Source of the DNA: Dehalococcoidia bacterium | GTDB lineage: Bacteria; Chloroflexota; Dehalococcoidia; UBA2979 | NCBI GenBank assembly: GCA_965207415.1 | Contig: CBDBMD010000003.1 | Span: forward strand, 2,086,028-2,150,027 | DNA: 64,000 nt | Direction: 5' to 3' | In this document: positions 1 to 12,308 of the stretch, one piece after another | Position numbering within the stretch: position 1 is the stretch's first letter | Layout: the number at the start of each line of letters is the position of its first letter | Position numbers and translations under genes: made by a program | The notes under the pieces: model-generated | Database searches by the model: none | The model's input: only the letters and a program-made list of their open reading frames with translations | What the model was told of the DNA's origin: nothing

Positions 1-1076
1 TTCTCCGGCGCCACGTAGGGCGCGCCGCTCTCCGCGTCCGAGCCGGGGTTCTGGTTGAACGCGAGGAAGGTGGTCCCGAAAGCGGGGCCACGCCGGTAGA
101 TGGTGAAGTTGCCCGCGCCCTCGAGCGGCTTGAGGCCCGCGTACTCCTCGCCTGTGACGCCGTGCACGTCCGTCTCGCCCGCCTCGAAGAGGGCGAGCTC
201 GGCCTCGATGTCGTCGACGAGCAGGTGCACGATGGTGTCGATGTAGGGGAGGCTGTTGCCCTCGGCGTCCTTCAGCCAGTAGCTCGGGTTGCGCCGCAGC
301 ACGACGCGCTCGCCGGGGGTGTAGCTCTCGATGGTGAATGGCCCCGTGCCGATCACCGTCGCCGGGTCCGCGTCGATGCCCCAGACGGAGTTGAAGGTGC
401 CGGCGTCGACGTGCGGCTCGAGGATGTGGCGCGGGTAGATCGCCGTGCCCATCGAGCGGATGAAGGGCGCGAACGACGTCGGCAGCACGAAGCGGACCGT
501 GTAGTCGTCCACCGCCGTCACGGTCATCGTGTCCTCGACCCACTCGCCGTCCTCGAGGAAGCGGAAGATGAAGGCCGCGCGGGTATTCGTCGGGATGTCC
601 TCGTTGTAGATGATGCGGTTGAAGGTGAAGTCCACGTCGTGCGCGGTGAACGGCTGGCCGTCGTGCCAGCTGACGTCGCGGCGCAGGGAGAAGGTCCAGG
701 TCAGCCCGTCCTCCGAGTGCTCCCAGGACTCGGCCAGCGAGGGCTCGACCTCGTCCGTCAGCCACGAGACCTCGGTCAGCCCGTCGAAGAGCAGGCTGAG
801 CAGGCCGGAGGAGTAGGCGTCGTTCGCCAGCGGGAGGTTGAAGGTCAGCGGCTCGCCGATGGTCGACGACGTAAACGTGCCGCCCGGCTCCCCGATCTCG
901 TACTCGAACGCCGCGGCGTTCTCCATGAGCGAGCCGACGATCGCCTCGGGCGTGTCGGTGGCGTCCCCGTCGCCCTCGTCGTCACCGTCGCCGTCGCCGC
1001 AGGCGGCGAGGGCTAGCGCGGCGGTGAGCAAGAGCAGCACGAGGAACCTCGAGCGCGTCATGAGCCACGTCGACAT
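1..1076 (-). CDS. ABC transporter substrate-binding lipoprotein, family 5 (Dpp/Opp/Nik-like); C-terminus runs off the window edge
   Basis: Minus-strand translation from ATG at 1076 with GGAGGA 5 nt upstream gives MSTWLMTRSRFLVLLLLTAALALAACG (lipobox). It continues with SBP family-5-like sequence (WHDGQPFTAHDVDFTF..., PGERVVLRRNPSYW). It is absent from the ORF track because it stays open to position 1. Plus-strand ORFs 162..1016 and 838..1170 are antisense artefacts. Confidence 0.8.
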   Translation of the reverse strand, partial: MSTWLMTRSRFLVLLLLTAALALAACGDGDGDDEGDGDATDTPEAIVGSLMENAAAFEYEIGEPGGTFTSSTIGEPLTFNLPLANDAYSSGLLSLLFDGLTEVSWLTDEVEPSLAESWEHSEDGLTWTFSLRRDVSWHDGQPFTAHDVDFTFNRIIYNEDIPTNTRAAFIFRFLEDGEWVEDTMTVTAVDDYTVRFVLPTSFAPFIRSMGTAIYPRHILEPHVDAGTFNSVWGIDADPATVIGTGPFTIESYTPGERVVLRRNPSYWLKDAEGNSLPYIDTIVHLLVDDIEAELALFEAGETDVHGVTGEEYAGLKPLEGAGNFTIYRRGPAFGTTFLAFNQNPGSDAESGAPYVAPE

Positions 1077-1222
1077 CGGTTCCTCCTTCAGCGTGCCCGC
1101 AGGTGAGACAGCATATCGCGGGTCCGGGTCAGGATCGTTCCGGCAGCCCGAAGGGTTTCGGGTAGGCTGAGGATGAGAGTTGCGCACTGCACGCACGGAC
1201 CCGGCGCAGCGAATGGGGGCGC

Positions 1223-4200
1223 GTGACCGCACGGCTGACGGCCCTGCTGGTGGCACTCGTGCTCGCCCTGCCGGGCGCCGCCACGGTCGACGCCCAAGGC
1301 GCGGGCGGCGAGACGGACGTCATCGAGGTGCGCGTCGCCGCGCGACGGCTGCTCAACGGCAACACGGAGTTCGCGACGCAGCAGCGCCAGGCGGACGGGT
1401 CGTGGGGCGAGCGCCTGCTGCCGCGGGCGCGCTTCTTCCCCGCGAGCACGAGGGTCGGACGCTGGCTTGCGAGCTCGCCGCTCACGGTGCGTCCCTCGGG
1501 CGGAAGCGGTGCGGCGGAGATCCGCGTTGCCGCGCGGCTGCTCGCCGATGGCCGCATGGAGTTCGCGGCGCAGCAGCGCCAGGCGGACGGGTCGTGGGGC
1601 GAGCGCCTGCTGCCGCGGGCGCGCTTCTTCCCCGCGAGCACGAGGGTCGGACGCTGGCTTGCGAGCACGCCGCTGACGGTGACGCTGCGGCTCCCGGGCT
1701 CGGTCGCCTCAGACCGCGCCGCCCTCGTGGCGTTCTATGAGGCGACGAACGGTTCGAACTGGGAGAGCAGCAGCAACTGGCTGAGCGACAGGCCGCTCGG
1801 CGAGTGGCACGGCGTCACCACCGATGACAGTGGGCGCGTGACGGAACTGAGACTACTCAATAGCAGGCTGGCTGGCTCGCTCCCGGCCGAGCTTGGAGGG
1901 CTCTCAAGCCTGGAGGTGCTGTGGATCTCCGACAGTCCCAGGGGCAGGCAGCTTGGCGGCCCCATCCCGGTTGAGTTGGGTCGGCTCACGAACCTCCGCG
2001 CGCTGATCATCAGCAACATCAGCTTGAGCGGGCCCATCCCGGCTGAGATTGGGCGCCTCACTAATCTGCGCACACTCGATCTTGGACATAACCAGTTGAG
2101 CGGGCCCATCCCGATTGCCGTTGGAAACCTCAGCAGTCTGGGCACGCTTGGCCTCGAGCAGAACAAATTGAGCGGGCCGCTCCCGGTTGAGCTCGGACGC
2201 CTCTCAGAGTTGCGTCAGCTTGAAGTGGGGTGGAACCAGTTGAGCGGTCCAATCCCGATCGAGCTGGGAACTCTCTCCAACCTGGAATGGCTCGACCTCG
2301 GCGGAACCAACCAGTTAAGCGGGCGAATCCCGGCTGAGTTCGGCAGCCTCACGAACCTGAAACACCTGGACCTCTCAGGGAACCGACTGACCGGGCCGAT
2401 CCTGGCAGAGTTGGCGAATCTCACCAATCTGCGTGAGCTGAACCTCTGGGGAAACCAGCTGACGGGCCCGATCCCGACTGAGTTCGGCAGCCTCACGAAC
2501 CTAGAGCGGCTGTACCTCGGGAGGAACCGCCTGACCGGGCCGATCTTGGCAGGGTTAGGGAATCTCACCAATCTGCGTGAGCTGAACCTGTCGTGGAACC
2601 AGCTGACGGGGCCGATCGCGCCTGAGTTAGGGGCCCTCAGGGGCCTGGAGTCGCTCTACCTCTCAGGGAACGCGCTGAGTGGATCGATCCCGCCTGAGTT
2701 GGGGGCCCTCAGGGGCCTGCGCTCGCTCAGCCTCACAGCGAACGCGCTGAGCGGACCGATCCCGCCTGAGTTGGGGGCCCTCAGGGGCTTGGAGTCGCTC
2801 TACCTCTCAGAGAACGTGCTGAGCGGGCCGATCCCGGCCGAGCTGGGCAGCCTCGGGAACTTGCGTAGGTTAGGCCTCGATGGCAACGAGCTTGGCGGGC
2901 CGATCCCGGCTGAATTGGGCAACCTCATCAAGTTGGACGGTTTGAACTTGCAGATGAACCGGTTGGGTGGGCCGATCCCGGCTGAGCTGGGCAACCTCAC
3001 GGCCGTTGCGACGTTGGAGCTCTCTGACAACGACTTGAGCGGCTCGATCCCGTCCGCGCTCGGCAGTCTCATCTCCCTCGAACGACTGACCCTCGGGGGC
3101 AACGAGTTGAGCGGGTGCGTACCCAACGCACTGGAGGACGTGCCGGAGAACGACCTCACCGATCTCGGCCTGCCCTTCTGCTCACCCGTGACGGTCACGC
3201 AGCCGGCGAAGGGGTCGGTGGCATCGGACCGGGCCGCCCTTGTCGCGCTCTACGAAGCGACAGGCGGGCCGGGCTGGACGAACAGTGCGAAGTGGTTGAG
3301 CCATGCGCCGATTGGCACGTGGTTCGGCGTCACCACGAACGAAGACGGCCGTGTGACGGCGCTGGCCCTCGACGACAACCGGCTGGCCGGTCCGATACCG
3401 CCCGAATTGGGCAGCCTCACTCAACTGAGGACGCTCGGTCTCTCAAGCAACGAGCTGAGCGGACCGATACCGGCTGCGTTGGGTCGACTCGCGAACCTGC
3501 TGTTACTCGATCTCTCAATCAACGAGCTGAGCGGACCGCTCCCGGTTGAGTTAGGCGACCTCACCAACCTGAGTACGCTTCATCTCCGGGACAACCAACT
3601 GAGCGGGCCGATCCCAGCCGAACTGGGACGTCTCTCCAATCTGCAATGGTTCAACCTCGGAGGAGGCAACCAGTTGAACGGGCTAATCCCGGTTCAGTTG
3701 GGCAACCTCACCAAGCTGGGATGGCTGAACCTCGCGGAGAATGAGCTGAGCGGGCCAATTCCCCTTGAGCTGGGCAACCTGACCAACCTGGTCGAGCTGA
3801 GGCTCTCGGGGAACCAGCTCAGCGGAACAATCCCGGTTCAGCTGGGCGGACTTGCCTTCCTGCAGGAGCTGTGGCTCGGTGGCAACAAGTTGAGCGGGGC
3901 GATCCCGGCTGAGCTGGGCGGCCTCACCAACCTCTGGTCGCTGCATCTCGGTGGCAACAAGTTGAGCTGGCCGATCCCGGCTGAGCTGGGCAACCTCACC
4001 CGCCTGCGAAACCTGCATCTCTTCCACAACCAGTTGAGCGGGCCGATCCCTACGGAGCTGGGCGACCTTGCCAATCTTTGGACGCTAGATCTCGCAGACA
4101 ATGCGCTGAGCGGGCCGATCCCGACCGAGTTGGGCCGACTCACCAACCTGCGGACGTTGCTGATCCAGCACAACGAGCTCAGTGGGCCGATCCCGCCGGA

Positions 4201-4402
4201 GTTGGGCAGCCTGCAAAAGCTGGGTCGGCTCGAACTCCATCACAATGAGCTGAGCGGCCCGATCCCGGTCGAGCTGGGGAGGCTTACGGATCTGATCATT
4301 CTGTACCTCAGAGACAACTTGCTTACCGGGTGCATCCCCGAGGAGCTGCGAGACATCTGGCGGAACGACCTCGGCGAGCTCGGCCTCTCCTTCTGCAACT
4401 AG
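1223..4402 (+). CDS. Secreted plant-type leucine-rich-repeat protein (1059 aa) with two LRRNT+LRR ectodomain-like arrays
   Basis: GTG start with signal peptide MTARLTALLVALVLALPGAATVDA. Two 64-aa N-terminal modules, with nt 1378..1476 identical to 1570..1668. Two copies of an LRRNT-like cap (GSVASDRAALVAxYEATxG..W..W.GVT.D..GRVT.L.L), each followed by about 17-20 24-residue repeats LxxLxxLxLxxNxLSGPIPxELGx. Each array ends with a Cys cap (LSGCVP...DLGLPFC and LTGCIP...LGLSFCN). Confidence 0.8.
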   Translation: MTARLTALLVALVLALPGAATVDAQGAGGETDVIEVRVAARRLLNGNTEFATQQRQADGSWGERLLPRARFFPASTRVGRWLASSPLTVRPSGGSGAAEIRVAARLLADGRMEFAAQQRQADGSWGERLLPRARFFPASTRVGRWLASTPLTVTLRLPGSVASDRAALVAFYEATNGSNWESSSNWLSDRPLGEWHGVTTDDSGRVTELRLLNSRLAGSLPAELGGLSSLEVLWISDSPRGRQLGGPIPVELGRLTNLRALIISNISLSGPIPAEIGRLTNLRTLDLGHNQLSGPIPIAVGNLSSLGTLGLEQNKLSGPLPVELGRLSELRQLEVGWNQLSGPIPIELGTLSNLEWLDLGGTNQLSGRIPAEFGSLTNLKHLDLSGNRLTGPILAELANLTNLRELNLWGNQLTGPIPTEFGSLTNLERLYLGRNRLTGPILAGLGNLTNLRELNLSWNQLTGPIAPELGALRGLESLYLSGNALSGSIPPELGALRGLRSLSLTANALSGPIPPELGALRGLESLYLSENVLSGPIPAELGSLGNLRRLGLDGNELGGPIPAELGNLIKLDGLNLQMNRLGGPIPAELGNLTAVATLELSDNDLSGSIPSALGSLISLERLTLGGNELSGCVPNALEDVPENDLTDLGLPFCSPVTVTQPAKGSVASDRAALVALYEATGGPGWTNSAKWLSHAPIGTWFGVTTNEDGRVTALALDDNRLAGPIPPELGSLTQLRTLGLSSNELSGPIPAALGRLANLLLLDLSINELSGPLPVELGDLTNLSTLHLRDNQLSGPIPAELGRLSNLQWFNLGGGNQLNGLIPVQLGNLTKLGWLNLAENELSGPIPLELGNLTNLVELRLSGNQLSGTIPVQLGGLAFLQELWLGGNKLSGAIPAELGGLTNLWSLHLGGNKLSWPIPAELGNLTRLRNLHLFHNQLSGPIPTELGDLANLWTLDLADNALSGPIPTELGRLTNLRTLLIQHNELSGPIPPELGSLQKLGRLELHHNELSGPIPVELGRLTDLIILYLRDNLLTGCIPEELRDIWRNDLGELGLSFCN
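1378..1668 (+). repeat. Intragenic tandem duplication (192-bp period, 99 bp perfectly identical) inside the secreted LRR gene
   Basis: 1378..1476 and 1570..1668 are identical and encode QQRQADGSWGERLLPRARFFPASTRVGRWLAS twice. Confidence 0.85.
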
Positions 4403-4411
4403 CCGTCCCGA

Positions 4412-5653
4412 CTACCCCCGAGGCAGGCCGAGGCCGCGGGTGGCGATGATGTTGCGCTGCACCTCGGAGGTGCCGCCGCGGATCGTCGCGGGGACGGCGC
4501 GCAGGTAGTTGTACGGCGGCGCGCCGCCCTGCGCGGCGTATGCGCTCTCCGGCCCGTCCTCCGTGCCCTGACCCCAGAGTTGCCCGTACAACCCGAACGT
4601 CTTGATGCTCGTCGCCGAGAGCCGCTGCAGCAGCTCCGAGTTGAACAGCTTCGAGGTCGAGGCCTCGTAGTTCGGCACCATTCCCGCCGCCTGGATCGAG
4701 ATCACGCGCGCCGAGAACTGGAACATCACGTCCGTCTCGATGTAGCGGTCGGCGACCTCGGTGCGCAGCGTCCCGCCGCGCCCGAGCAGCGACTTCGCCG
4801 CGCCCTCCTCGCTCGCGCAGTAGGCGAGCAGCTTCTCGATGCCACGCTGCATCGAGACGGCTCCCTCGATGTTGGAGCGCTCGAAGTCGAGCAGGTTCAT
4901 CGCGACGTACCAGCCGCGGTTCTCCTCGCCGACGATGTTGGAGACGGGCGTACGCACCTCCTCGTAGAAGGTCTCGTTGAAGTAGTGCACGTCGCTCATG
5001 TCGACCAGCGGCTGGACGCCGATACCCGGCGTCTTGCCGTCGACGAGCAGGAAGGAGATGCCGCGGTGCTTCGGCGCGGTCGGGTCGGTGCGGGTGAGCA
5101 GGAAGAACCAGTCGGCGGTGTGCGCCGCCGAGGTCCAGATCTTCTGCCCGTTGATCACGTAGTCGTCGCCGTCGCGGCGCGCGCTGGTGGAGAGCGAGGC
5201 GAGGTCCGAGCCGGCCCCCGGCTCCGAAAAGCCCTGCGCCCACGTCACCTCGCCGGAGAGGATGCGCGGCAGGTGCTCGCGCCGCTGCTCCTCGGTGCCG
5301 TTGATGATCAGCGTCGGCCCGAGCATGTTGGTGCCGGAGCCGCCGACCGCCGGGGCGCCGGAGCTCGCCAGCTCCTGCTTGAGGATGAACTGCTCCATCG
5401 AGCTGAGCCCGCCGCCGCCGTACTCTTCCGGCCAGTGCGGCGCGACCCAGTTGTGCTCGGCGAGGGCGTCCGACCAGGCGACGGCGGCCTCGCGGCGATC
5501 GGGGTCCTCGGACTTGCGGTCGAACTCCCAGGTGCGCTCGAGGCGATGCGCGTTGACGCCGCCGCTGCGGTAGCGCGCCGGGAGGCGCTCGGCGATCAGG
5601 CTGCGGACCTTCTCGCGAAAGTCCTGCTGCTCCTCGTTGTCGCTCCAGTCCAT
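4412..5653 (-). CDS. Acyl-CoA dehydrogenase
   Basis: The track ORF 4412..5848 is trimmed to the internal ATG (MDWSDNEEQQDF...) preceded by GGAGG. ACAD family motifs are present (GGGGLS..., WAQGFSEPGAGSDLAS, WTSAAHTADWFFLLTRTD, C-terminal GGTSEVQRNIIA). It lies 9 bp from the convergent LRR gene stop. Confidence 0.85.
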   Translation of the reverse strand: MDWSDNEEQQDFREKVRSLIAERLPARYRSGGVNAHRLERTWEFDRKSEDPDRREAAVAWSDALAEHNWVAPHWPEEYGGGGLSSMEQFILKQELASSGAPAVGGSGTNMLGPTLIINGTEEQRREHLPRILSGEVTWAQGFSEPGAGSDLASLSTSARRDGDDYVINGQKIWTSAAHTADWFFLLTRTDPTAPKHRGISFLLVDGKTPGIGVQPLVDMSDVHYFNETFYEEVRTPVSNIVGEENRGWYVAMNLLDFERSNIEGAVSMQRGIEKLLAYCASEEGAAKSLLGRGGTLRTEVADRYIETDVMFQFSARVISIQAAGMVPNYEASTSKLFNSELLQRLSATSIKTFGLYGQLWGQGTEDGPESAYAAQGGAPPYNYLRAVPATIRGGTSEVQRNIIATRGLGLPRG

Positions 5654-5693
5654 CGTTCGCCTCCGCCCTCCGGCGCTCTCCTGCGATTGCGTT

Positions 5694-6971
5694 CTATGCG
5701 ATGACGTCCGCCTCGCGCAGCGAGGCGAGTTCGTCGGCGCTGAAGCCGTGCTCCAGCAGCACCTCGTCGGTGTCGGCGGCGTAGGCCGGAGCCGGGCCGT
5801 GCACGGCCGTCGGCGTCTCCGACATCTGCACCACCGGCCCGGCGACACGCTGCGGCCCGGTGATCGGGTGCTCGAGGTCCCACATCAGGCCGAGCGCCCG
5901 CACCTGCTCGTCCTCCGGCAGATCCTCGGGAAAGCGCACCGGCGAGGCGGGGACGCCGCCCTCCTCGAAGCGCTCCATCCACTCCGCCACCGTGTGCTCG
6001 CGCATCAGGCGCTCGATCTGCGACTTCCACGCCTCGAAGCGCGGCTCGTTCTCCGGGTCCGTCGAGTCGTAGTCCGGGCTGTCGCCGTCGTCGTCGACGC
6101 CGAGCACGGCGCGGGCGGCGGCGCGCAGCGGTGGCGTGAGGCAGCCGAGGGCGATCGCGCCGTCCTTCGCCTGGTAGGAGCGGTAGTAGAGGCGCGGCGG
6201 GCCGGCCTCGGTGATGCGATGGCGGTCGCGGATCGCCATCTGGTCGCGGTAGGGCTTGCCGGCGGCGCGCGCCTCCTCGATCTCGGCGAGCATCGGGTCG
6301 CGCGTCACGGAGTCGCTGACCGGCTCGTCCATTACGTGGTAGTCGAGCAGCGAGAGCGCGGTGCGCAGCATCGAGGCCTGGATCAGCTGCCCCTTGCCCG
6401 TGCGTTCGCGGTGGTAGAGCGCGCTCGCGATCGCCATCGCCGAGGTGAGCCCCGTCGCGTAGTCGACGATCGGCGGGCGCGTGTACTGCGGGGTGCCCTC
6501 GTGGTCGACGCGGCCGATTACGGACATCAGGCCGCTGTAGGCGGTCATCGCGCCGTCGGTGGCCGGATCGAAGGCGCGAGGGCCCTCGCTGCCGTAGGCG
6601 CTGATCTCGCAGTAGATGAGGCCGGGGTGGAGCGCGGCGAGCTGCTCGTAGCCGACGCCGAGGCGTTCCGGGACGCCGGGCCGCATGTTGTGCATCAGTA
6701 CGTCGAAGCGCGGGACCAGGCGGTGCAGCACGGCCTGGCCGCGCGCGCTCTTGAGGTCGATCGCCACGGCGCGCTTGCCGCGGTTGAGGGACTGGAAGCG
6801 CTTGCCCTCCCGGGGGACGACAGCGCCGACGTTGCGGTAGTGCTCGCCCTCGCGCGGCTCGACCTTGACGACGTCGGCGCCGAGGTCGGAGAGATTGACG
6901 CCGCAGTAGGGACCCGCGGCGATCTGCGAGAACTCGAGCACGCGCACGCCATCGAGCGCACCGGGCGCCAT
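5694..6971 (-). CDS. CoA-transferase family III (CaiB/BaiF-type)
   Basis: Start reassigned to ATG (MAPGALDGVRVLEFSQIAAGPYCGVNLSDLGADVVKVEP...) with a GGAGGAG RBS. This is the typical family-III N-terminus. The upstream part of the track ORF is a frame extension. Confidence 0.85.
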   Translation of the reverse strand: MAPGALDGVRVLEFSQIAAGPYCGVNLSDLGADVVKVEPREGEHYRNVGAVVPREGKRFQSLNRGKRAVAIDLKSARGQAVLHRLVPRFDVLMHNMRPGVPERLGVGYEQLAALHPGLIYCEISAYGSEGPRAFDPATDGAMTAYSGLMSVIGRVDHEGTPQYTRPPIVDYATGLTSAMAIASALYHRERTGKGQLIQASMLRTALSLLDYHVMDEPVSDSVTRDPMLAEIEEARAAGKPYRDQMAIRDRHRITEAGPPRLYYRSYQAKDGAIALGCLTPPLRAAARAVLGVDDDGDSPDYDSTDPENEPRFEAWKSQIERLMREHTVAEWMERFEEGGVPASPVRFPEDLPEDEQVRALGLMWDLEHPITGPQRVAGPVVQMSETPTAVHGPAPAYAADTDEVLLEHGFSADELASLREADVIA

Positions 6972-7146
6972 CGTCGCTCCTCCGCTGCCGGTCCACCGGG
7001 TCCGGGGTCGTGTCGCCTCACTGGTCGCGAGACAGCCTACCGGAGGCGCGCCGCGCGAGGTAGGCGTGGAGCTACCGGAGGACGGCAAGGATCGCCCTGC
7101 TGGAGCAACGAACGAAGTAGCCCCGCGCCGAGGCTCGTCCGTCGAC

Positions 7147-9429
7147 TCAGTTGCAGAACGGCAGCCCAAGCGCGGCAAGGTCATTGTTCGGCCTGCCCCG
7201 CAACTCGACAGGTATGCAGCCGCTCAGCTCATTGCCCCTGAGAAGCAGCACTTGCAGGTTGCGAAGGGCGCCCAGTTCGGGCGGGATCGGCCCGCTCAAC
7301 TGGTTGTCGCGGAGATACAGCTCTCGCAGGTTGCTGAGGCCGCCTAACTCGGGCGGGATCGGCCCGCTCAACTGGTTGTCGCGGAGATCCAGGTCTAGCA
7401 GGTTGCTGAGGCCACCCAGCTCAGCCGGGATCGGCCCGCTCAACTCGTTGCCCCCGAGATCTAGGTCTTGCAGGTTGCTGAGGCCACCCAGCTCGGCCGG
7501 AATCGGCCCGCTCAACTGGTTGCCCCCGAGATCCAGGTCTTGCAGGTTGCTGAGTGCGCCCAACTTGGCCGGGATCGGCCCGCTCAACTCGTTGCCCCCG
7601 AGATCCAGGTCTTGCAGGTTGCTGAGGCCACCCAGCTCAGCCGGAATCGGCCCGCTCAGTTGGTTCTCGCCAAGATTCAGCAGGTCGAGGGTGGCGAGGC
7701 CGCCCAGCTCCGCCGGGATCGGCCCGCTCAGTTGGTTCTCGCCAAGATTCAGCAGGTCGAGGGTGGTGAGGCCGCCCAGCTCCGCCGGGATCGGCCCGCT
7801 CAGTTGGTTCTCGCCAAGATTCAGCAGGTCGAGGGTGGCGAGGCCGCCCAGCTCCGCCGGGATCGGCCCGCTCAGTTGGTTCTCGCCAAGATTCAGCAGG
7901 TCGAGGGTGGTGAGGCCGCCCAACTCGGCCGGAATCGGCCCGCTCAACTGGTTGGTCTCGAGCCGCAGCGTCACCAGCTTGGCAAGGTCGCCGAGCTCGG
8001 CCGGAATCGGCCCGCTCAACTGGTTGGTCTCGAGCCGCAGCGTCACCAGCTTGGCAAGGTTGCCGAGCTCGGGCGGGATCGGCCCGCTCAGCTGGTTGTT
8101 GTAGAGCTCCAACTCTGTCAGGTGGGGAAGGCCGCCGAGTTCAGGCGGGATCGGCCCACTCAACTGGTTGTTGTAGAGCTCCAACTCTGTCAGGTGGGGA
8201 AGGCCGCCGAGTTCAGGCGGGATCGGCCCACTCAACTGGTTGTCTTCGAGCCACAGGGCCACCAGATTGGCGAGGCCGCCCAGCTCGGCCGGGATCGGCC
8301 CGCTCAACTGGTTGCTCGCGAGATGCAGCTGTTCCAGATTGCCGAGGTCTCCCAGCTCGGCCGGGATCGGCCCACTCAACTGGTTCTTGTTGAGATACAG
8401 CAGTTCAAGGCGGATGAGGCCGCCCAGCTCACCCGGAATCCGTCCGCTCAACTGGTTGCTGTTGAGATCCAGTATTTCCAGATCGCTGAGGCCGCCCAGC
8501 TCGGCCGGGATCGGCCCACTCAGCTGGTTGTGGGAGAGGTCCAGCCATTCCAACTGGATGAGTCTAATCAACTCAGCAGGGATCGGCCCGCTCAGCTGGT
8601 TGTGGGAGAAGTCCAGCCATTCCAACTGGATGAGTCTAGTCAACTCAGCAGGGATCGGCCCGCTCAACTCGTTGAAGTGGAGAGCCAGCCATCGCAGGTT
8701 CGTGAGGCCGCCGAGTTCAGCCGGAATCGGTCCGCGCAAATGGTTCCCGATCAGAATCAGCTCTATGACCCGACCGCCGTCAGCGGTGACACCGTGCCAC
8801 TCGCCGATCGGTCGGTCGGTCAGCCAGTTCGTGGTGTTCGCCCAGTCCGGTCCACCCGTCGCCTCGTAGAGCGCGACAAGGGCGGCTCGGTCCGAGGCGA
8901 CCGAGCCCGGTGCAGGTGTCACGTCTGGGGTCGACGTCGACGTTGGTGTGGCCGTCGGCGTGGGCGTAGCTATCGAAGTCGGGGACGGCGTCGGGGTGGC
9001 CGTCGGAGTCGGAGTAGGCGCGGCTGTGGCTGTCGCCGGCGGCGCCTGCGCGAGCTGCTGCTCGCTGCCATCGAGGTCAGCGAGGACGATGAGCACGACC
9101 GCCACCGCGGCCACCGCCGCCGTGCCGGCCGCCGCCACGCCCGCCCACACGAGCACGCGCCCGAGGGGTTCGAGCGCCCCGGGCAGCGCGAGCAGCCCGA
9201 ACAGCCGCCGCCGCGGCTCGGGACGCCAGGCGGCGAGCTGCCCGCGGTTCTCGAGTCCCAGCTTCCCGAGCATGTTCGAGATGTGGAACTTGACCGCGTC
9301 GAGGGTGACGCCGAGCCGCACCGCGATCTCGGCGTTCGTGCCGCCTCGGCGCAGCTCTTCGAGCACGCGCAGCTCGGCCGGGGTGAGGATGCCGGGATGT
9401 GGCGGGCGGCCCCGCCCTCGCTGCGTCAT
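7147..9429 (-). CDS. Membrane-anchored one-component regulator: N-terminal LuxR-type HTH, single TM helix, extracellular plant-type LRR domain (about 22 repeats)
   Basis: N-terminus LTPAELRVLEELRRGGTNAEIAVRLGVTLDAVKFHISNMLGKLGLENRGQLAAW matches the LuxR/FixJ HTH. The hydrophobic span VLVWAGVAAAGTAAVAAVAVVLIVLA follows, then a Thr/Pro linker. An LRRNT-like cap (GSVASDRAALVALYEATGGPDWANTTNWLTDRPIGEWHGVT) and LxxLxLxxNQLSGPIPxELGxL repeats come next. The C-terminal cap is LSGCIPVELRG..NDLAALGLPFCN. Confidence 0.8.
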   Translation of the reverse strand: MTQRGRGRPPHPGILTPAELRVLEELRRGGTNAEIAVRLGVTLDAVKFHISNMLGKLGLENRGQLAAWRPEPRRRLFGLLALPGALEPLGRVLVWAGVAAAGTAAVAAVAVVLIVLADLDGSEQQLAQAPPATATAAPTPTPTATPTPSPTSIATPTPTATPTSTSTPDVTPAPGSVASDRAALVALYEATGGPDWANTTNWLTDRPIGEWHGVTADGGRVIELILIGNHLRGPIPAELGGLTNLRWLALHFNELSGPIPAELTRLIQLEWLDFSHNQLSGPIPAELIRLIQLEWLDLSHNQLSGPIPAELGGLSDLEILDLNSNQLSGRIPGELGGLIRLELLYLNKNQLSGPIPAELGDLGNLEQLHLASNQLSGPIPAELGGLANLVALWLEDNQLSGPIPPELGGLPHLTELELYNNQLSGPIPPELGGLPHLTELELYNNQLSGPIPPELGNLAKLVTLRLETNQLSGPIPAELGDLAKLVTLRLETNQLSGPIPAELGGLTTLDLLNLGENQLSGPIPAELGGLATLDLLNLGENQLSGPIPAELGGLTTLDLLNLGENQLSGPIPAELGGLATLDLLNLGENQLSGPIPAELGGLSNLQDLDLGGNELSGPIPAKLGALSNLQDLDLGGNQLSGPIPAELGGLSNLQDLDLGGNELSGPIPAELGGLSNLLDLDLRDNQLSGPIPPELGGLSNLRELYLRDNQLSGPIPPELGALRNLQVLLLRGNELSGCIPVELRGRPNNDLAALGLPFCN
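7400..8700 (-). repeat. Near-identical 72/144-bp tandem repeats inside the LRR array (recent repeat expansion)
   Basis: Several consecutive LRR units are nearly identical at nucleotide level (for example ETNQLSGPIPAELGDLAKLVTLRL x2, GENQLSGPIPAELGGL(T/A)TLDLLNL x4, GGN(E/Q)LSGPIPA(E/K)LG(G/A)LSNLQDLDL x3). Confidence 0.75.
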
Positions 9430-11291: not shown

Positions 11292-12308
11292 ATGCCCAAT
11301 GCCCCACGGCTCGGCGCGTTCGCGGCGCTCGCTCTGGCGGCGGCGCTCGCGACCTTCCCCGGCTGCTCCGGCGACGACGAGAGCGAGGCGCCAGCGACGC
11401 CCACCGCAACCGGCACCGCGACCCCGACCGCCTCACCTGTCGTGACGCCCTCGCCCTCGCCGACGCCAACGCTCGAGCCCGCAACCGCGACCCCGGTGGC
11501 GACCGCCGGGGCGGACCCGCCGTCCGGCGACGGCGAAGGCCTGCTGCCGCCGGAGCAACAGGCGCAGGTGGTGCGCCTGCTGCTCGACGCGATGAGCGAT
11601 CCAGATTCCGAGCTGTTCTCGGGCTCGATCGACGCGCTGCCGCCGGCGCTGCGGGCGCTGTTCGACGCACTCGGCGCCGACCTGCTGCTGGGCGTGATCA
11701 TCGCCGAGCTGGGAGGCTCGGGAACGGTCGTCGCCGTCCTCCCCGGCTCGCCCGCCGAGCGCGCGGGCCTTGTCGAGGGCGACCAGATCACCGCAGTCGA
11801 CGACACGCCCGTCGCGAGCGACGCGGAGCTGCGCGCCGCCATCGAGGCCGTCGCCGAGGGCGCGGCCTATGTGCTGACGGTCAGGCGCGGCGGTGCGCCC
11901 GGGCTGGTGGACCTCGAGCGCGAGGCGGCGTCCGAAGGCGACGCCTGGCGCGCGGAGCTGCTGCGCGCCGTGGCGCTCGCGCTGGTGCTGCAGGGCGCTC
12001 CGGGCGGCCCGGAAGTGCCGCCGTCGCTGCTCGGCGAGCTGGTCGAGGAGACGCCAGACGGGCTGCGCGTCTTCGCGGTCTTCCCCGGCTCACCCGCGGA
12101 CGCGGGCGGCATCCTCCCCGGCGACCAGCTGCTCTCGATCGATGGCCGCGCCCTCAGGACCATCGCCGACCTCGAGGAGTTGATGCGCTCGGGCGCGCCC
12201 CCGATCGGGCCGACCGAGGTCGTTGTGCTCCGCGACGGGGAGGAGCTGACGCTGGAGATCGACCTCGCCGCCGGCGGCATGCTCGGCGGCGGCGCGGCGA
12301 CACAGTAG
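11292..12308 (+). CDS. Lipoprotein with two PDZ domains
   Basis: Lipobox LATFPGCSG and a Pro/Thr/Ala linker. Two PDZ-like segments (GTVVAVLPGSPAERAGLVEGDQITAVDDTPV and GLRVFAVFPGSPADAGGILPGDQLLSIDGRAL). Confidence 0.7.
   Translation: MPNAPRLGAFAALALAAALATFPGCSGDDESEAPATPTATGTATPTASPVVTPSPSPTPTLEPATATPVATAGADPPSGDGEGLLPPEQQAQVVRLLLDAMSDPDSELFSGSIDALPPALRALFDALGADLLLGVIIAELGGSGTVVAVLPGSPAERAGLVEGDQITAVDDTPVASDAELRAAIEAVAEGAAYVLTVRRGGAPGLVDLEREAASEGDAWRAELLRAVALALVLQGAPGGPEVPPSLLGELVEETPDGLRVFAVFPGSPADAGGILPGDQLLSIDGRALRTIADLEELMRSGAPPIGPTEVVVLRDGEELTLEIDLAAGGMLGGGAATQ

What the first reader, a model, noticed from the sequence alone, without database searches (positions are those of the whole stretch)
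1223..4402. Secreted paralogue with two plant-type LRR ectodomains and a perfectly duplicated N-terminal module; same caps as the LuxR-LRR receptor
The 1059-aa protein has a signal peptide and then two 64-aa modules whose core 99 nt are identical (1378..1476 = 1570..1668), indicating a very recent duplication. Two complete LRRNT-cap + LRR + Cys-cap units follow (GSVASDRAALVA(F/L)YEATxG...W and LSGC(V/I)P...LG.F/LPFC). These caps match the membrane regulator at 7147..9429, so the two genes form a local paralogous family. This suggests a soluble co-receptor, decoy or ligand-binding partner. The gene converges on the acd gene with only a 9-bp gap.
Basis: seen in the sequence. Interest (0 to 1): 0.7.

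Follow-up and report, generated by a model that had tools for sequence, protein, structure and literature searches.

The report
Secreted LRR protein with unnamed handle domain
This is a real accessory gene, probably from a sponge-associated Dehalococcoidia bacterium, encoding an exported plant-type leucine-rich-repeat protein; its LRR part is an ordinary symbiont "eukaryotic-like" protein, but its N-terminal double module belongs to a large protein-domain family that no database names.

Summary
The ORF (1223-4402, 1059 aa) is real. It has a Sec-type signal, two about 55-aa modules 64 aa apart, and two capped 24-residue plant-type LRR solenoids (18 and 14 repeats). The exact repeat is 98 nt (1377-1474 = 1569-1666), not 99.

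- The module pair is not a recent duplication. Orthologues in other MAGs keep distinct first and second modules, so the window shows a gene-conversion tract inside an old pair.
- The pair behaves as one basic (pI 11.8) all-beta domain (AF2 pLDDT 92). It has no Pfam, NCBIfam or convincing PDB relative.
- It occurs in about 1,600 protein clusters. It sits almost always just behind a signal peptide and in front of varied exoproteins: RCC1, LRR, trypsin-like proteases, alpha-2-macroglobulin, CAP, an amidase and a binding protein.
- The caps are family-wide. The window's three LRR units are no closer to each other than to units in other genomes.
- A contig with about 95% identical flanking proteins keeps the LuxR-LRR gene but has 84 bp where this gene sits.

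Best reading: an accessory, exported, probably surface-retained LRR protein. The retention role of the handle domain is inferred, not shown.

The parts
1125..4408 (.). 3,284-bp segment present in the window and replaced by 84 bp in the closely related contig L097 (an indel carrying the whole LRR gene plus 98 bp upstream)
   Evidence: L097 14201-14304 matches window 4409-4512 at 98% nt. L097 14389-14613 matches window 900-1124 at 78%. Flanking proteins are about 95% identical. No inverted repeats or target-site duplication at the edges.
1223..4402 (+). CDS, 1059 aa, GTG start: signal peptide, module pair, and two capped LRR units
   Evidence: ORF list. Pfam finds LRR families only. The start position agrees with orthologue N-termini such as MAARLMALVAA....
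1223..1294 (+). Sec-type (SPase I) signal peptide, aa 1-24, predicted cleavage VDA|QG; no lipobox Cys and no twin-Arg
   Evidence: Read from the sequence and a hydropathy scan. Homologues share it. No predictor was run.
1322..1489 (+). Module 1 (aa 34-89) of the undescribed basic beta domain
   Evidence: tblastn, family alignments A1 and A2, AF2 model.
1514..1681 (+). Module 2 (aa 98-153)
   Evidence: Its N-terminal signature LLADGRMEF is orthologous to module 2 of L046, L072, L001 and P0013.
1377..1474 (+). Gene-conversion tract, copy in module 1 (98 nt exact)
1569..1666 (+). Gene-conversion tract, copy in module 2 (98 nt exact)
1697..3181 (+). LRR unit 1 (aa 159-653): Cys-free N-cap GSVASDRAALVAFYEATNGSNW...WHGVT, 18 LRRs (sixteen of 24 residues, one of 28, one of 25), and C-cap LSGCVP...LGLPFC with C632 and C653
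3212..4399 (+). LRR unit 2 (aa 664-1059): N-cap, 14 LRRs, and C-cap with C1037 and C1058
   Evidence: PDB matches are plant LRR-RLK ectodomains.
7147..9429 (-). Neighbouring gene, not part of this one: GerE/LuxR HTH (aa 14-67), a hydrophobic stretch read as one TM helix, a Pro/Thr-rich linker, and the same cap-LRR-cap cassette with 22 LRRs
   Evidence: Conserved in position in L097.

Best explanation
The gene encodes an accessory, Sec-exported LRR protein of the 'eukaryotic-like protein' kind. The host is an uncultured, high-GC member of the Dehalococcoidia (Chloroflexota), probably a sponge symbiont.

After signal-peptide cleavage, the mature N-terminus is one compact, strongly basic all-beta domain built from two about 55-aa modules. 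This domain belongs to a large family that no database names. The family is used as a 'handle', almost always directly behind the signal peptide, on many unrelated exoproteins of sponge-associated Dehalococcoidia and Acidimicrobiia.

I infer that the handle holds its passenger at the cell surface by non-covalent binding to an anionic envelope polymer, in the way SLH, LysM or CWB2 domains do. Binding an anionic host-matrix polymer is the close alternative. The two acidic, disulfide-capped plant-type LRR solenoids are the displayed binding surfaces for protein or peptide ligands from the host or the environment.

The 98-nt identity is a gene-conversion tract between the two old modules. The gene is an indel between close relatives and is not a fixed partner of the LuxR-LRR regulator.

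Shown: the architecture, the existence and distribution of the family, the conversion signature, and the indel. Inferred: export, the retention role of the handle, and the ligand class.
For: Architecture and plant-type repeats.

Export: N-terminal leader, no other hydrophobic segment, and exactly two Cys per LRR unit, both in the C-cap.

Handle domain:
- No Pfam or NCBIfam hit, even at E <= 10 for Pfam.
- AF2 on the pair gives pLDDT 92.4 and pTM 0.84, all-beta.
- The profile finds 1,636 50%-identity cluster representatives.
- In the top 143, there are 2 modules in 125 and 4 in 11. The domain is N-terminal in 131, and 127 of 128 with enough upstream sequence have a hydrophobic leader.
- pI is 11.8 for the handle against 4.7-4.9 for the LRR units.

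Passengers behind the handle (64 proteins: the window's plus 63 from the loci): RCC1 in 29, LRR in 13, trypsin-like in 8, alpha-2-macroglobulin in 4, plus CAP, Amidase_3 and Peripla_BP_6. From established knowledge, alpha-2-macroglobulins and solute-binding proteins are normally lipid-anchored, and wall amidases normally carry wall-binding domains. Here all three have an SPase-I-type signal plus the module pair and no lipobox Cys.

Distribution: 43 GTDB species genomes, of which 28 are Chloroflexota/Dehalococcoidia, 12 Acidimicrobiia, 2 unclassified and 1 Gemmatimonadetes, with many loci per genome. APA and SB0661 bins are sponge MAGs (PMC11706023). LRR proteins are a recognised enriched class in sponge symbionts (PMC6306507; PMC11706023).

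Gene conversion. Near-identical module pairs also occur in P0017, P0012, P0019 and L015.

Indel.
Against: - No experiment or predictor confirms export or surface retention.
- The family spans two phyla with different envelopes and one apparently diderm MAG. That fits a common host ligand at least as well as a self-envelope ligand.
- The one binding-protein fusion I checked is not in an ABC-transporter operon, so it does not prove tethering.
- The sponge origin of the window itself is inferred only from relatives. The environment of the closest contig, L097, is unknown.
- No LRR ligand can be named.
- The conversion tract could in principle be an assembly artefact; reads are not available.
Confidence: 0.55

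Rival explanations
1. Host-matrix targeting. The basic module pair binds an anionic polymer of the sponge mesohyl, such as sulfated glycans or matrix proteins, rather than the bacterium's own envelope. The LRR protein and the other passengers are then released and deposited on host matrix or host cells.
For: The family is shared across phyla with different cell envelopes, and every bin name I could place is from a sponge. The handle has pI 11.8. Many passengers are typical host-interaction proteins: LRR, RCC1, CAP, proteases and protease inhibitors.
Against: The Amidase_3, solute-binding-protein and alpha-2-macroglobulin fusions are easier to explain by retention at the producer's own surface. 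There is no direct evidence for any ligand. Sponge specificity was not tested statistically.
Confidence: 0.22
2. The protein is a soluble co-receptor, decoy or ligand-presenting partner of the membrane-bound LuxR-LRR regulator 2.7 kb away.
For: Both genes carry the same cap-LRR-cap cassette within 8 kb. In related MAGs the LuxR-TM cassette and the module pair carry the same kinds of ectodomain, LRR and RCC1, which would allow matched sensor and decoy pairs.
Against: L097 keeps the LuxR-LRR gene with about 95% identical neighbours but lacks this gene. No LuxR HTH lies within any of the 94 module loci from the genome scan; those loci are 8 kb or less, so the test is weak. The LRR units of the two genes are no more similar to each other (56-60%) than to L046 from another genome (54-62%). 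The genes are not co-oriented and are separated by two metabolic genes.
Confidence: 0.08
3. Artefact or decaying gene. The 98-nt identity is an assembly collapse or chimera, or the gene is a non-functional remnant of repeat shuffling.
For: Repeat-rich genes are prone to misassembly. The orthologue in the 7x-coverage contig L001 is broken into five ORFs. Reads are not available.
Against: The window has a 3,180-nt uninterrupted ORF with intact signal, both modules, and all four caps and Cys pairs. The identical tract is only 98 nt with unique flanks. Similar homogenised pairs occur in independent assemblies, some on multi-megabase contigs.
Confidence: 0.04

Closest known systems
Eukaryotic-like LRR proteins (ELPs) of marine sponge symbionts
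   Same: Both are Pfam LRR_1/LRR_4/LRR_8-positive proteins encoded by uncultured sponge-associated bacteria. The class is enriched in symbionts, is thought to be spread by HGT, and is postulated to mediate host-microbe interaction (PMC6306507; PMC11706023). All relatives of this gene with a recognisable source are such MAGs.
   Different: That literature counts LRR Pfam hits. I found no description of this architecture (module pair plus multiple capped units) or of the N-terminal domain. The sponge origin of the window itself is inferred.
Plant LRR receptor kinase and receptor-like protein ectodomains (GSO1, FLS2, HSL1, MIK2, BRI1)
   Same: They share the 24-residue repeat LxxLxLxxNxLSGxIPxxLGxLxx. 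They are the best PDB matches (2e-180 to 1e-64), far ahead of bacterial LRR structures such as LIC11098 at 4e-57. Both have an N-cap with xxDxxALLxx...W.GV and a Cys-containing C-cap.
   Different: There is no transmembrane helix or kinase. The N-cap lacks the Cys pair and does not reach Pfam LRRNT_2. Two solenoids sit in tandem in one chain. The context is bacterial.
SLH, LysM and CWB2-type cell-wall-binding modules of monoderm bacteria (functional analogy only)
   Same: These are short tandem modules of about 55 aa placed just after the signal peptide, less often at the C-terminus. They are attached to many unrelated exoproteins, including amidases and proteases. The module pair shows the same pattern.
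   Different: No sequence or fold similarity was detected. The unit is two modules rather than three. The ligand is unknown. The function is not shown.
Xanthomonas T3SS LRR effectors (XopAE, XopAC, XopL) and Listeria internalins
   Same: They are bacterial LRR proteins aimed at eukaryotic hosts. They give partial NCBIfam matches through the repeats.
   Different: Scores are far below the family cut-offs: 260 against 600, 211 against 450, and 131 against 1600. This protein has a Sec signal rather than a T3SS signal, and has no LPXTG motif, GW domain or inter-repeat domain.

Membership tests
Plant-specific (PS) class of LRRs | 24-residue repeat with consensus LxxLxLxxNxL(S/T)GxIPxxLGxLxx | tested here: met
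   29 of the 32 repeats match a 24-residue-register pattern; the other three are one extra 24-mer and three irregular repeats of 28, 25 and 25 residues found by inspection. The best 40 PDB matches are plant LRR-RLK ectodomains.
Plant LRR-RLK / RLP ectodomain | LRRNT_2 N-terminal cap (Pfam PF08263) with a conserved Cys pair | tested here: not met
   No PF08263 hit, even at E <= 10 on the isolated caps. There are only weak LRR_10 hits at 0.006-0.03. The N-caps contain no Cys.
Plant LRR-RLK / RLP ectodomain | Single-pass transmembrane helix (with or without a kinase) C-terminal to the LRRs | tested here: not met
   The protein ends at the C-cap (..LGLSFCN). The only hydrophobic segment is the N-terminal leader. 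No kinase Pfam hit.
Sponge-symbiont eukaryotic-like proteins, LRR class | Pfam LRR domains (PF00560, PF12799, PF13855), as used in PMC11706023 | tested here: met
   E-values of 5.5e-82, 7.1e-54 and 6.3e-60. The criteria were read.
Sponge-symbiont eukaryotic-like proteins, LRR class | Encoded by a sponge-associated symbiont genome | not testable with these tools
   The window has no source label, and exact-protein look-ups found nothing. Relatives are Dehalococcoidia and Acidimicrobiia MAGs, several from A. aerophoba or I. ramosa.
Sec (SPase I) secreted proteins | N-terminal n-h-c signal peptide with small residues at -3 and -1, and no lipobox | tested here: inconclusive
   MTARLTALLVALVLALPGAATVDA|QG fits by inspection and hydropathy, and the leader is conserved in homologues. 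No trained predictor was available.
Known cell-wall-binding domains (SLH, LysM, CWB2, SH3b, SPOR, choline-binding) | Sequence match to the family profile | tested here: not met
   The module pair has no Pfam-A or NCBIfam match and no PDB sequence or convincing fold match. The comparison is functional analogy only.
Xanthomonas XopAE / XopAC / XopL effectors; Listeria internalins | NCBIfam whole-protein score above the curated cut-off | tested here: not met
   259.8 against 600, 210.7 against 450, 98.6 against 500, and 131.1 against 1600.
Anti-phage defence proteins (PADLOC) | Match to any PADLOC-DB model | tested here: not met
   No family at E <= 0.001 for either LRR gene.

The most novel reading that the evidence does not exclude
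The basic double-beta module is a previously undescribed domain with no detectable fold relative. It acts as a cross-phylum surface-display or host-matrix-targeting handle specific to sponge symbionts. It would therefore mark the host-facing exoproteome of Dehalococcoidia and Acidimicrobiia symbionts: LRR, RCC1, proteases, alpha-2-macroglobulin and CAP proteins. The same ectodomain cassettes are shuffled between this handle and a membrane-bound LuxR-type HTH, so displayed binders and transcriptional sensors would draw on one shared pool of recognition modules.
Probability: 0.3. Interest if true: 0.7.

Novelty: new variant of a known kind. Interest (0 to 1): 0.42.

Why it matters
The LRR part adds little, because plant-type LRR proteins are already a recognised and abundant class in sponge symbionts.

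The useful result is the N-terminal domain. It is a confidently folded family of about 1,600 clusters with no name in Pfam or NCBIfam and no structural relative. It sits behind the signal peptide of many different exoproteins in at least two symbiont phyla. If it is a retention or targeting device, a single HMM would pick out the secreted, host-facing proteins of these uncultured symbionts. It would also give a tractable 137-aa protein for binding assays.

The indel against a near-identical contig shows that such genes turn over between close strains. The conversion tract shows concerted evolution inside the domain pair.

Tried and rejected
- The search for related loci with the module alignments failed because no stretch was conserved enough. 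I replaced it with a degenerate DNA pattern scan.
- Exact-protein look-ups for the LRR protein and the FAD enzyme found no source contig.
- I checked whether the module-bearing solute-binding protein (L073) sits in an ABC-transporter operon, which would have argued for tethering. It does not; a transposase follows it.
- I looked for mobile-element hallmarks at the indel edges (inverted repeats, target duplications) and for sigma-70 promoters or terminators near the start. None were found.
- PADLOC defence models gave no hits. A PDB sequence search with the module profile gave nothing.
- A literature search for the L097 sample accessions found nothing. A search for prior work on bacterial plant-specific LRRs returned nothing directly usable.
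- Rejected, 'recent duplication': orthologues already have differentiated module pairs.
- Rejected, 'variable-number module repeat': pairs are the unit.
- Rejected, membership of the internalin or Xop effector families: scores are far below the cut-offs.
Full report
**Observation.** The window has an uninterrupted ORF at 1223..4402 (+), with a GTG start and 1059 aa. Pfam finds only LRR families in it: LRR_1 at 5.5e-82, LRR_14 at 2.7e-65 and LRR_8 at 6.3e-60. Two modules lie 192 nt apart. The longest exact run between them is 98 nt, 1377-1474 = 1569-1666.

After the modules come two complete units:
- Unit 1 spans aa 159-653. It has the N-cap GSVASDRAALVAFYEATNGSNW...WHGVT, 18 LRRs, and the C-cap LSGCVP...LGLPFC.
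- Unit 2 spans aa 664-1059 and has 14 LRRs.

Nearly all repeats are 24 residues and fit LxxLxLxxNxLSGxIPxxLGxLxx. Each unit has exactly two Cys, 21 residues apart, in its C-cap. The caps of the regulator at 7147..9429 are 66-73% (N-cap) and 49-61% (C-cap) identical to these. The stop codon lies 9 bp from the convergent acyl-CoA dehydrogenase ORF.

**Export.** The N-terminus MTARLTALLVALVLALPGAATVDA|QG has the n-h-c layout of an SPase-I signal. It has no lipobox Cys and no twin-Arg, and it is the only hydrophobic stretch in the protein. Orthologues start the same way. I could not run a trained predictor, so export is well supported but inferred.

**'Plant-type'.** LRR unit 2 searched against PDB sequences gives plant receptor ectodomains in all of the top 40 places: GSO1 at 2.2e-180, FLS2 at 3e-144, then HSL1, MIK2, ERL1, PEPR1 and BRI1. 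The first bacterial LRR structure, Leptospira LIC11098, appears only at 3.9e-57. The N-caps resemble plant LRRNT_2 in pattern, but they lack its Cys pair and do not reach the Pfam model. More than 7,500 bacterial proteins match the whole protein at E <= 1e-50, none above 56% local identity, and they carry many different partner domains. Bacterial proteins with this repeat type are therefore common. From my own knowledge, plant-specific LRRs in bacteria have been described before (Matsushima and colleagues).

**The N-terminal modules.** Residues 25-161 match no Pfam or NCBIfam model. A search with the two modules found 81 proteins from Acidimicrobiia and Chloroflexi MAGs. That tool appears to list only hits up to roughly 1.75 times the query length, and several of these are truncated calls of longer genes. 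For example, P0011 is the first piece of a frameshifted module-LRR gene on a 7x-coverage contig.

A profile of the pair scored against 1.84 billion cluster representatives finds 1,636 proteins at E <= 0.001 and 1,325 at E <= 1e-10. In the 143 best:
- 125 have two modules, 11 have four, 6 have three and 1 has five.
- The domain is N-terminal in 131, C-terminal in 9 and internal in 3.
- Of the N-terminal cases with at least 20 residues upstream, 127 of 128 have a hydrophobic leader.

**Distribution and passengers.** A degenerate DNA pattern for RFFPxxxxVGRWL found 94 loci in 43 GTDB species genomes: 28 Chloroflexota/Dehalococcoidia, 12 Acidimicrobiia, 2 unclassified and 1 Gemmatimonadetes. There are often many loci per genome. 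The APA and SB0661 bin names belong to Aplysina aerophoba and Ircinia ramosa MAGs (PMC11706023). The source of the other genomes is not stated in the records.

I scanned 64 proteins with Pfam: the window's own plus 63 module-bearing proteins from these loci. The parts behind the handle were RCC1 propellers (29), LRR (13), trypsin-like peptidases (8), alpha-2-macroglobulin (4) and Big_5 (4), plus CAP, Amidase_3 and a Peripla_BP_6 binding protein. Several have no Pfam match.

The module + LRR architecture recurs, including versions with two or three capped units and with four modules (L057, L072, L020).

**Recent duplication or conversion?** Orthologues in L046, L072 and L001 all have a first module of the type VRVAARRLADGRTEF...ASTRVGRWLASSPL and a second of the type (I/V)RVAA(Q/R)LLVDGRMEF...A(D/N/A)A(R/T)VGRWL. 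Their first and second modules are 79-83% identical at nucleotide level, with longest exact runs of 20-21 nt.

The window keeps the first-module signature (RRLLNGNTEF) and the second-module signature (RLLADGRMEF) in the first 17 codons, which are 73% identical. The remainder is 98% identical, with the 98-nt exact run. The shared core (QRQADG...ASTRVGRW) looks like the first-module type, so the first module was probably the donor.

The pair is thus older than the divergence of these genomes, and the identity is a conversion tract. Other family members show similar homogenisation: P0017, P0012 and P0019 at protein level, and L015 with a 45-nt run. An assembly artefact cannot be excluded without reads. 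However, the tract is short, has unique flanks, and the phenomenon recurs in independent assemblies.

**Relation to the LuxR-LRR gene.** The three LRR units in the window are 48-60% identical to one another. They are 54-62% identical to the unit in L046, which comes from a different genome. At nucleotide level the two genes are about 69-71% identical, the same as to other genomes. The caps occur throughout the family.

The LuxR(GerE)-TM N-terminal cassette is itself a widespread device. In related Dehalococcoidia it is fused to LRR, RCC1, fn3 or unannotated ectodomains, with up to 93% identity in the HTH-TM part. One genome, L096, has three such genes within 8 kb.

Contig L097 is decisive here. 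Its FAD enzyme, CoA-transferase, acyl-CoA dehydrogenase and other neighbours are about 95% identical in protein to the window's, and they lie in the same order. The GerE-LRR gene is in the same place. Between the acyl-CoA dehydrogenase stop and the SBP_bac_5 gene, however, L097 has 84 bp where the window has 3,284 bp (1125-4408), which is this gene plus 98 bp upstream. The edges are sharp: 98% nt identity resumes at 4409. No inverted repeats or target duplications mark the edges.

None of the 94 module loci from the genome scan has a LuxR HTH nearby. This is a weak test, because those loci are only up to 8 kb long. The gene is therefore an accessory that comes and goes independently of the regulator. 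A co-receptor or decoy role is not excluded but has no support.

**Composition.** The LRR cassettes of both genes have GC3 of 0.80-0.83. The module-pair part and the HTH-TM part both have 0.92, and the neighbouring genes have 0.95-0.96. This fits cassettes that are shuffled or imported as units, but repeat-specific codon use could also explain it.

**Mechanism.** Three things point to a retention or targeting handle rather than a ligand-specific receptor part:
- its position directly behind the signal peptide;
- its use on many unrelated exoproteins;
- its strong positive charge.

Three kinds of passenger are usually cell-anchored in other bacteria. From established knowledge, alpha-2-macroglobulins and solute-binding proteins are anchored by an N-terminal lipid, and muramoyl-alanine amidases by wall-binding domains. 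Here all three carry an SPase-I-type signal plus the module pair and no lipobox. I therefore favour non-covalent retention on an anionic envelope polymer, in the way SLH, LysM or CWB2 modules work, with the two LRR solenoids displayed outward.

The main rival is binding to an anionic host-matrix polymer. The spread across two phyla with different envelopes, and the apparent restriction to sponge MAGs, fit that rival at least as well. I could not separate the two. The one binding-protein fusion I checked is not in a transporter operon.

The LRR ligand is unknown. By analogy with sponge-symbiont eukaryotic-like proteins, it is expected to be a host or environmental protein (PMC6306507; PMC11706023).

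**Comparison and novelty.** As an LRR protein, this is a further member of a known and abundant class. It is not a member of the internalin or Xop effector families, because its scores fall far below their cut-offs. It is not a plant-type receptor, having no TM helix, no kinase and no LRRNT_2 cap. It is not a known defence protein.

What is new is the N-terminal domain family and its role as a shared handle. It is not in Pfam-A (2025 copy) or NCBIfam (2026), and I found no paper describing it. Overall this is a new variant of a known kind and is moderately interesting.

Noticed in passing
window 7147-9429 (-); related proteins P0082-P0201; L096 8473-16058: The GerE/LuxR HTH + single-TM N-terminal cassette of the neighbouring gene is a widespread device in Dehalococcoidia MAGs. 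It is fused to LRR, RCC1, fn3 or unannotated ectodomains, with up to 93% identity in the HTH-TM part. L096 has three such genes within 8 kb. It carries the same kinds of ectodomain as the module pair.
   Followed up: partly
window 7246-8745 (-) compared with L097 10001-11550: The LuxR-LRR gene's repeat array is much more homogeneous than that of the 1059-aa gene: 20.8 copies of 72 nt at 82% matches, with runs of near-identical 24-aa repeats such as four copies of LDLLNLGENQLSGPIPAELGGL(A/T)T. The orthologue in the about 95%-identical contig L097 is only 412 aa, followed by LRR-like sequence beyond its stop. LRR number therefore changes quickly between close strains, or that gene is broken in L097.
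   Followed up: partly
window 1697-4402 and 7147-8907 compared with 1295-1705, 9040-9429 and neighbouring genes: The LRR cassettes of both genes have GC3 of 0.80-0.83. Their own N-terminal parts have 0.92, and flanking metabolic genes have 0.95-0.96. This suggests mosaic genes with imported or shuffled LRR cassettes, or repeat-specific codon use.
   Followed up: partly
window 1-1076 (-): A partial SBP_bac_5 solute-binding-protein gene runs off the left end of the window. It is 85-88% identical in protein to L097 14440-16269. Its ATG is at about 1076, preceded by a GGAGG ribosome-binding site, so it diverges from the LRR gene across about 146 bp.
   Followed up: partly
window 4412-5848 (-) and 5694-7184 (-): The longest ORFs for the acyl-CoA dehydrogenase (478 aa) and the CoA-transferase (496 aa) are probably over-extended at the 5' end. 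The L097 orthologues are 413 and 426 aa, which removes the apparent overlaps with each other and with the LuxR-LRR gene.
   Followed up: no
L001 8001-12395: The closest module-LRR orthologue by nucleotide identity (77% over the module region) is split into five ORFs by frame changes on a contig labelled 7x coverage. It could be a pseudogene or low-coverage assembly error. Several short 'proteins' in public databases (P0011, P0013, P0017, P0050) are such fragments.
   Followed up: partly
L073 2732-3640 (-): A DDE transposase lies directly downstream of the module-bearing Peripla_BP_6 gene in an Acidimicrobiales MAG. This hints that module-bearing genes sit in mobile or variable regions.
   Followed up: no
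window 9040-9429 region, LuxR-LRR aa 130-175; window 11292-12308: Long Pro/Thr/Ala-rich linkers ([14 protein letters not shown]...) occur in the LuxR-LRR protein between the TM helix and the N-cap. They also occur near the N-terminus of the ORF at 11292-12308, whose counterpart in L097 by position is a PDZ-domain protein. These are typical extended extracytoplasmic spacers.
   Followed up: no
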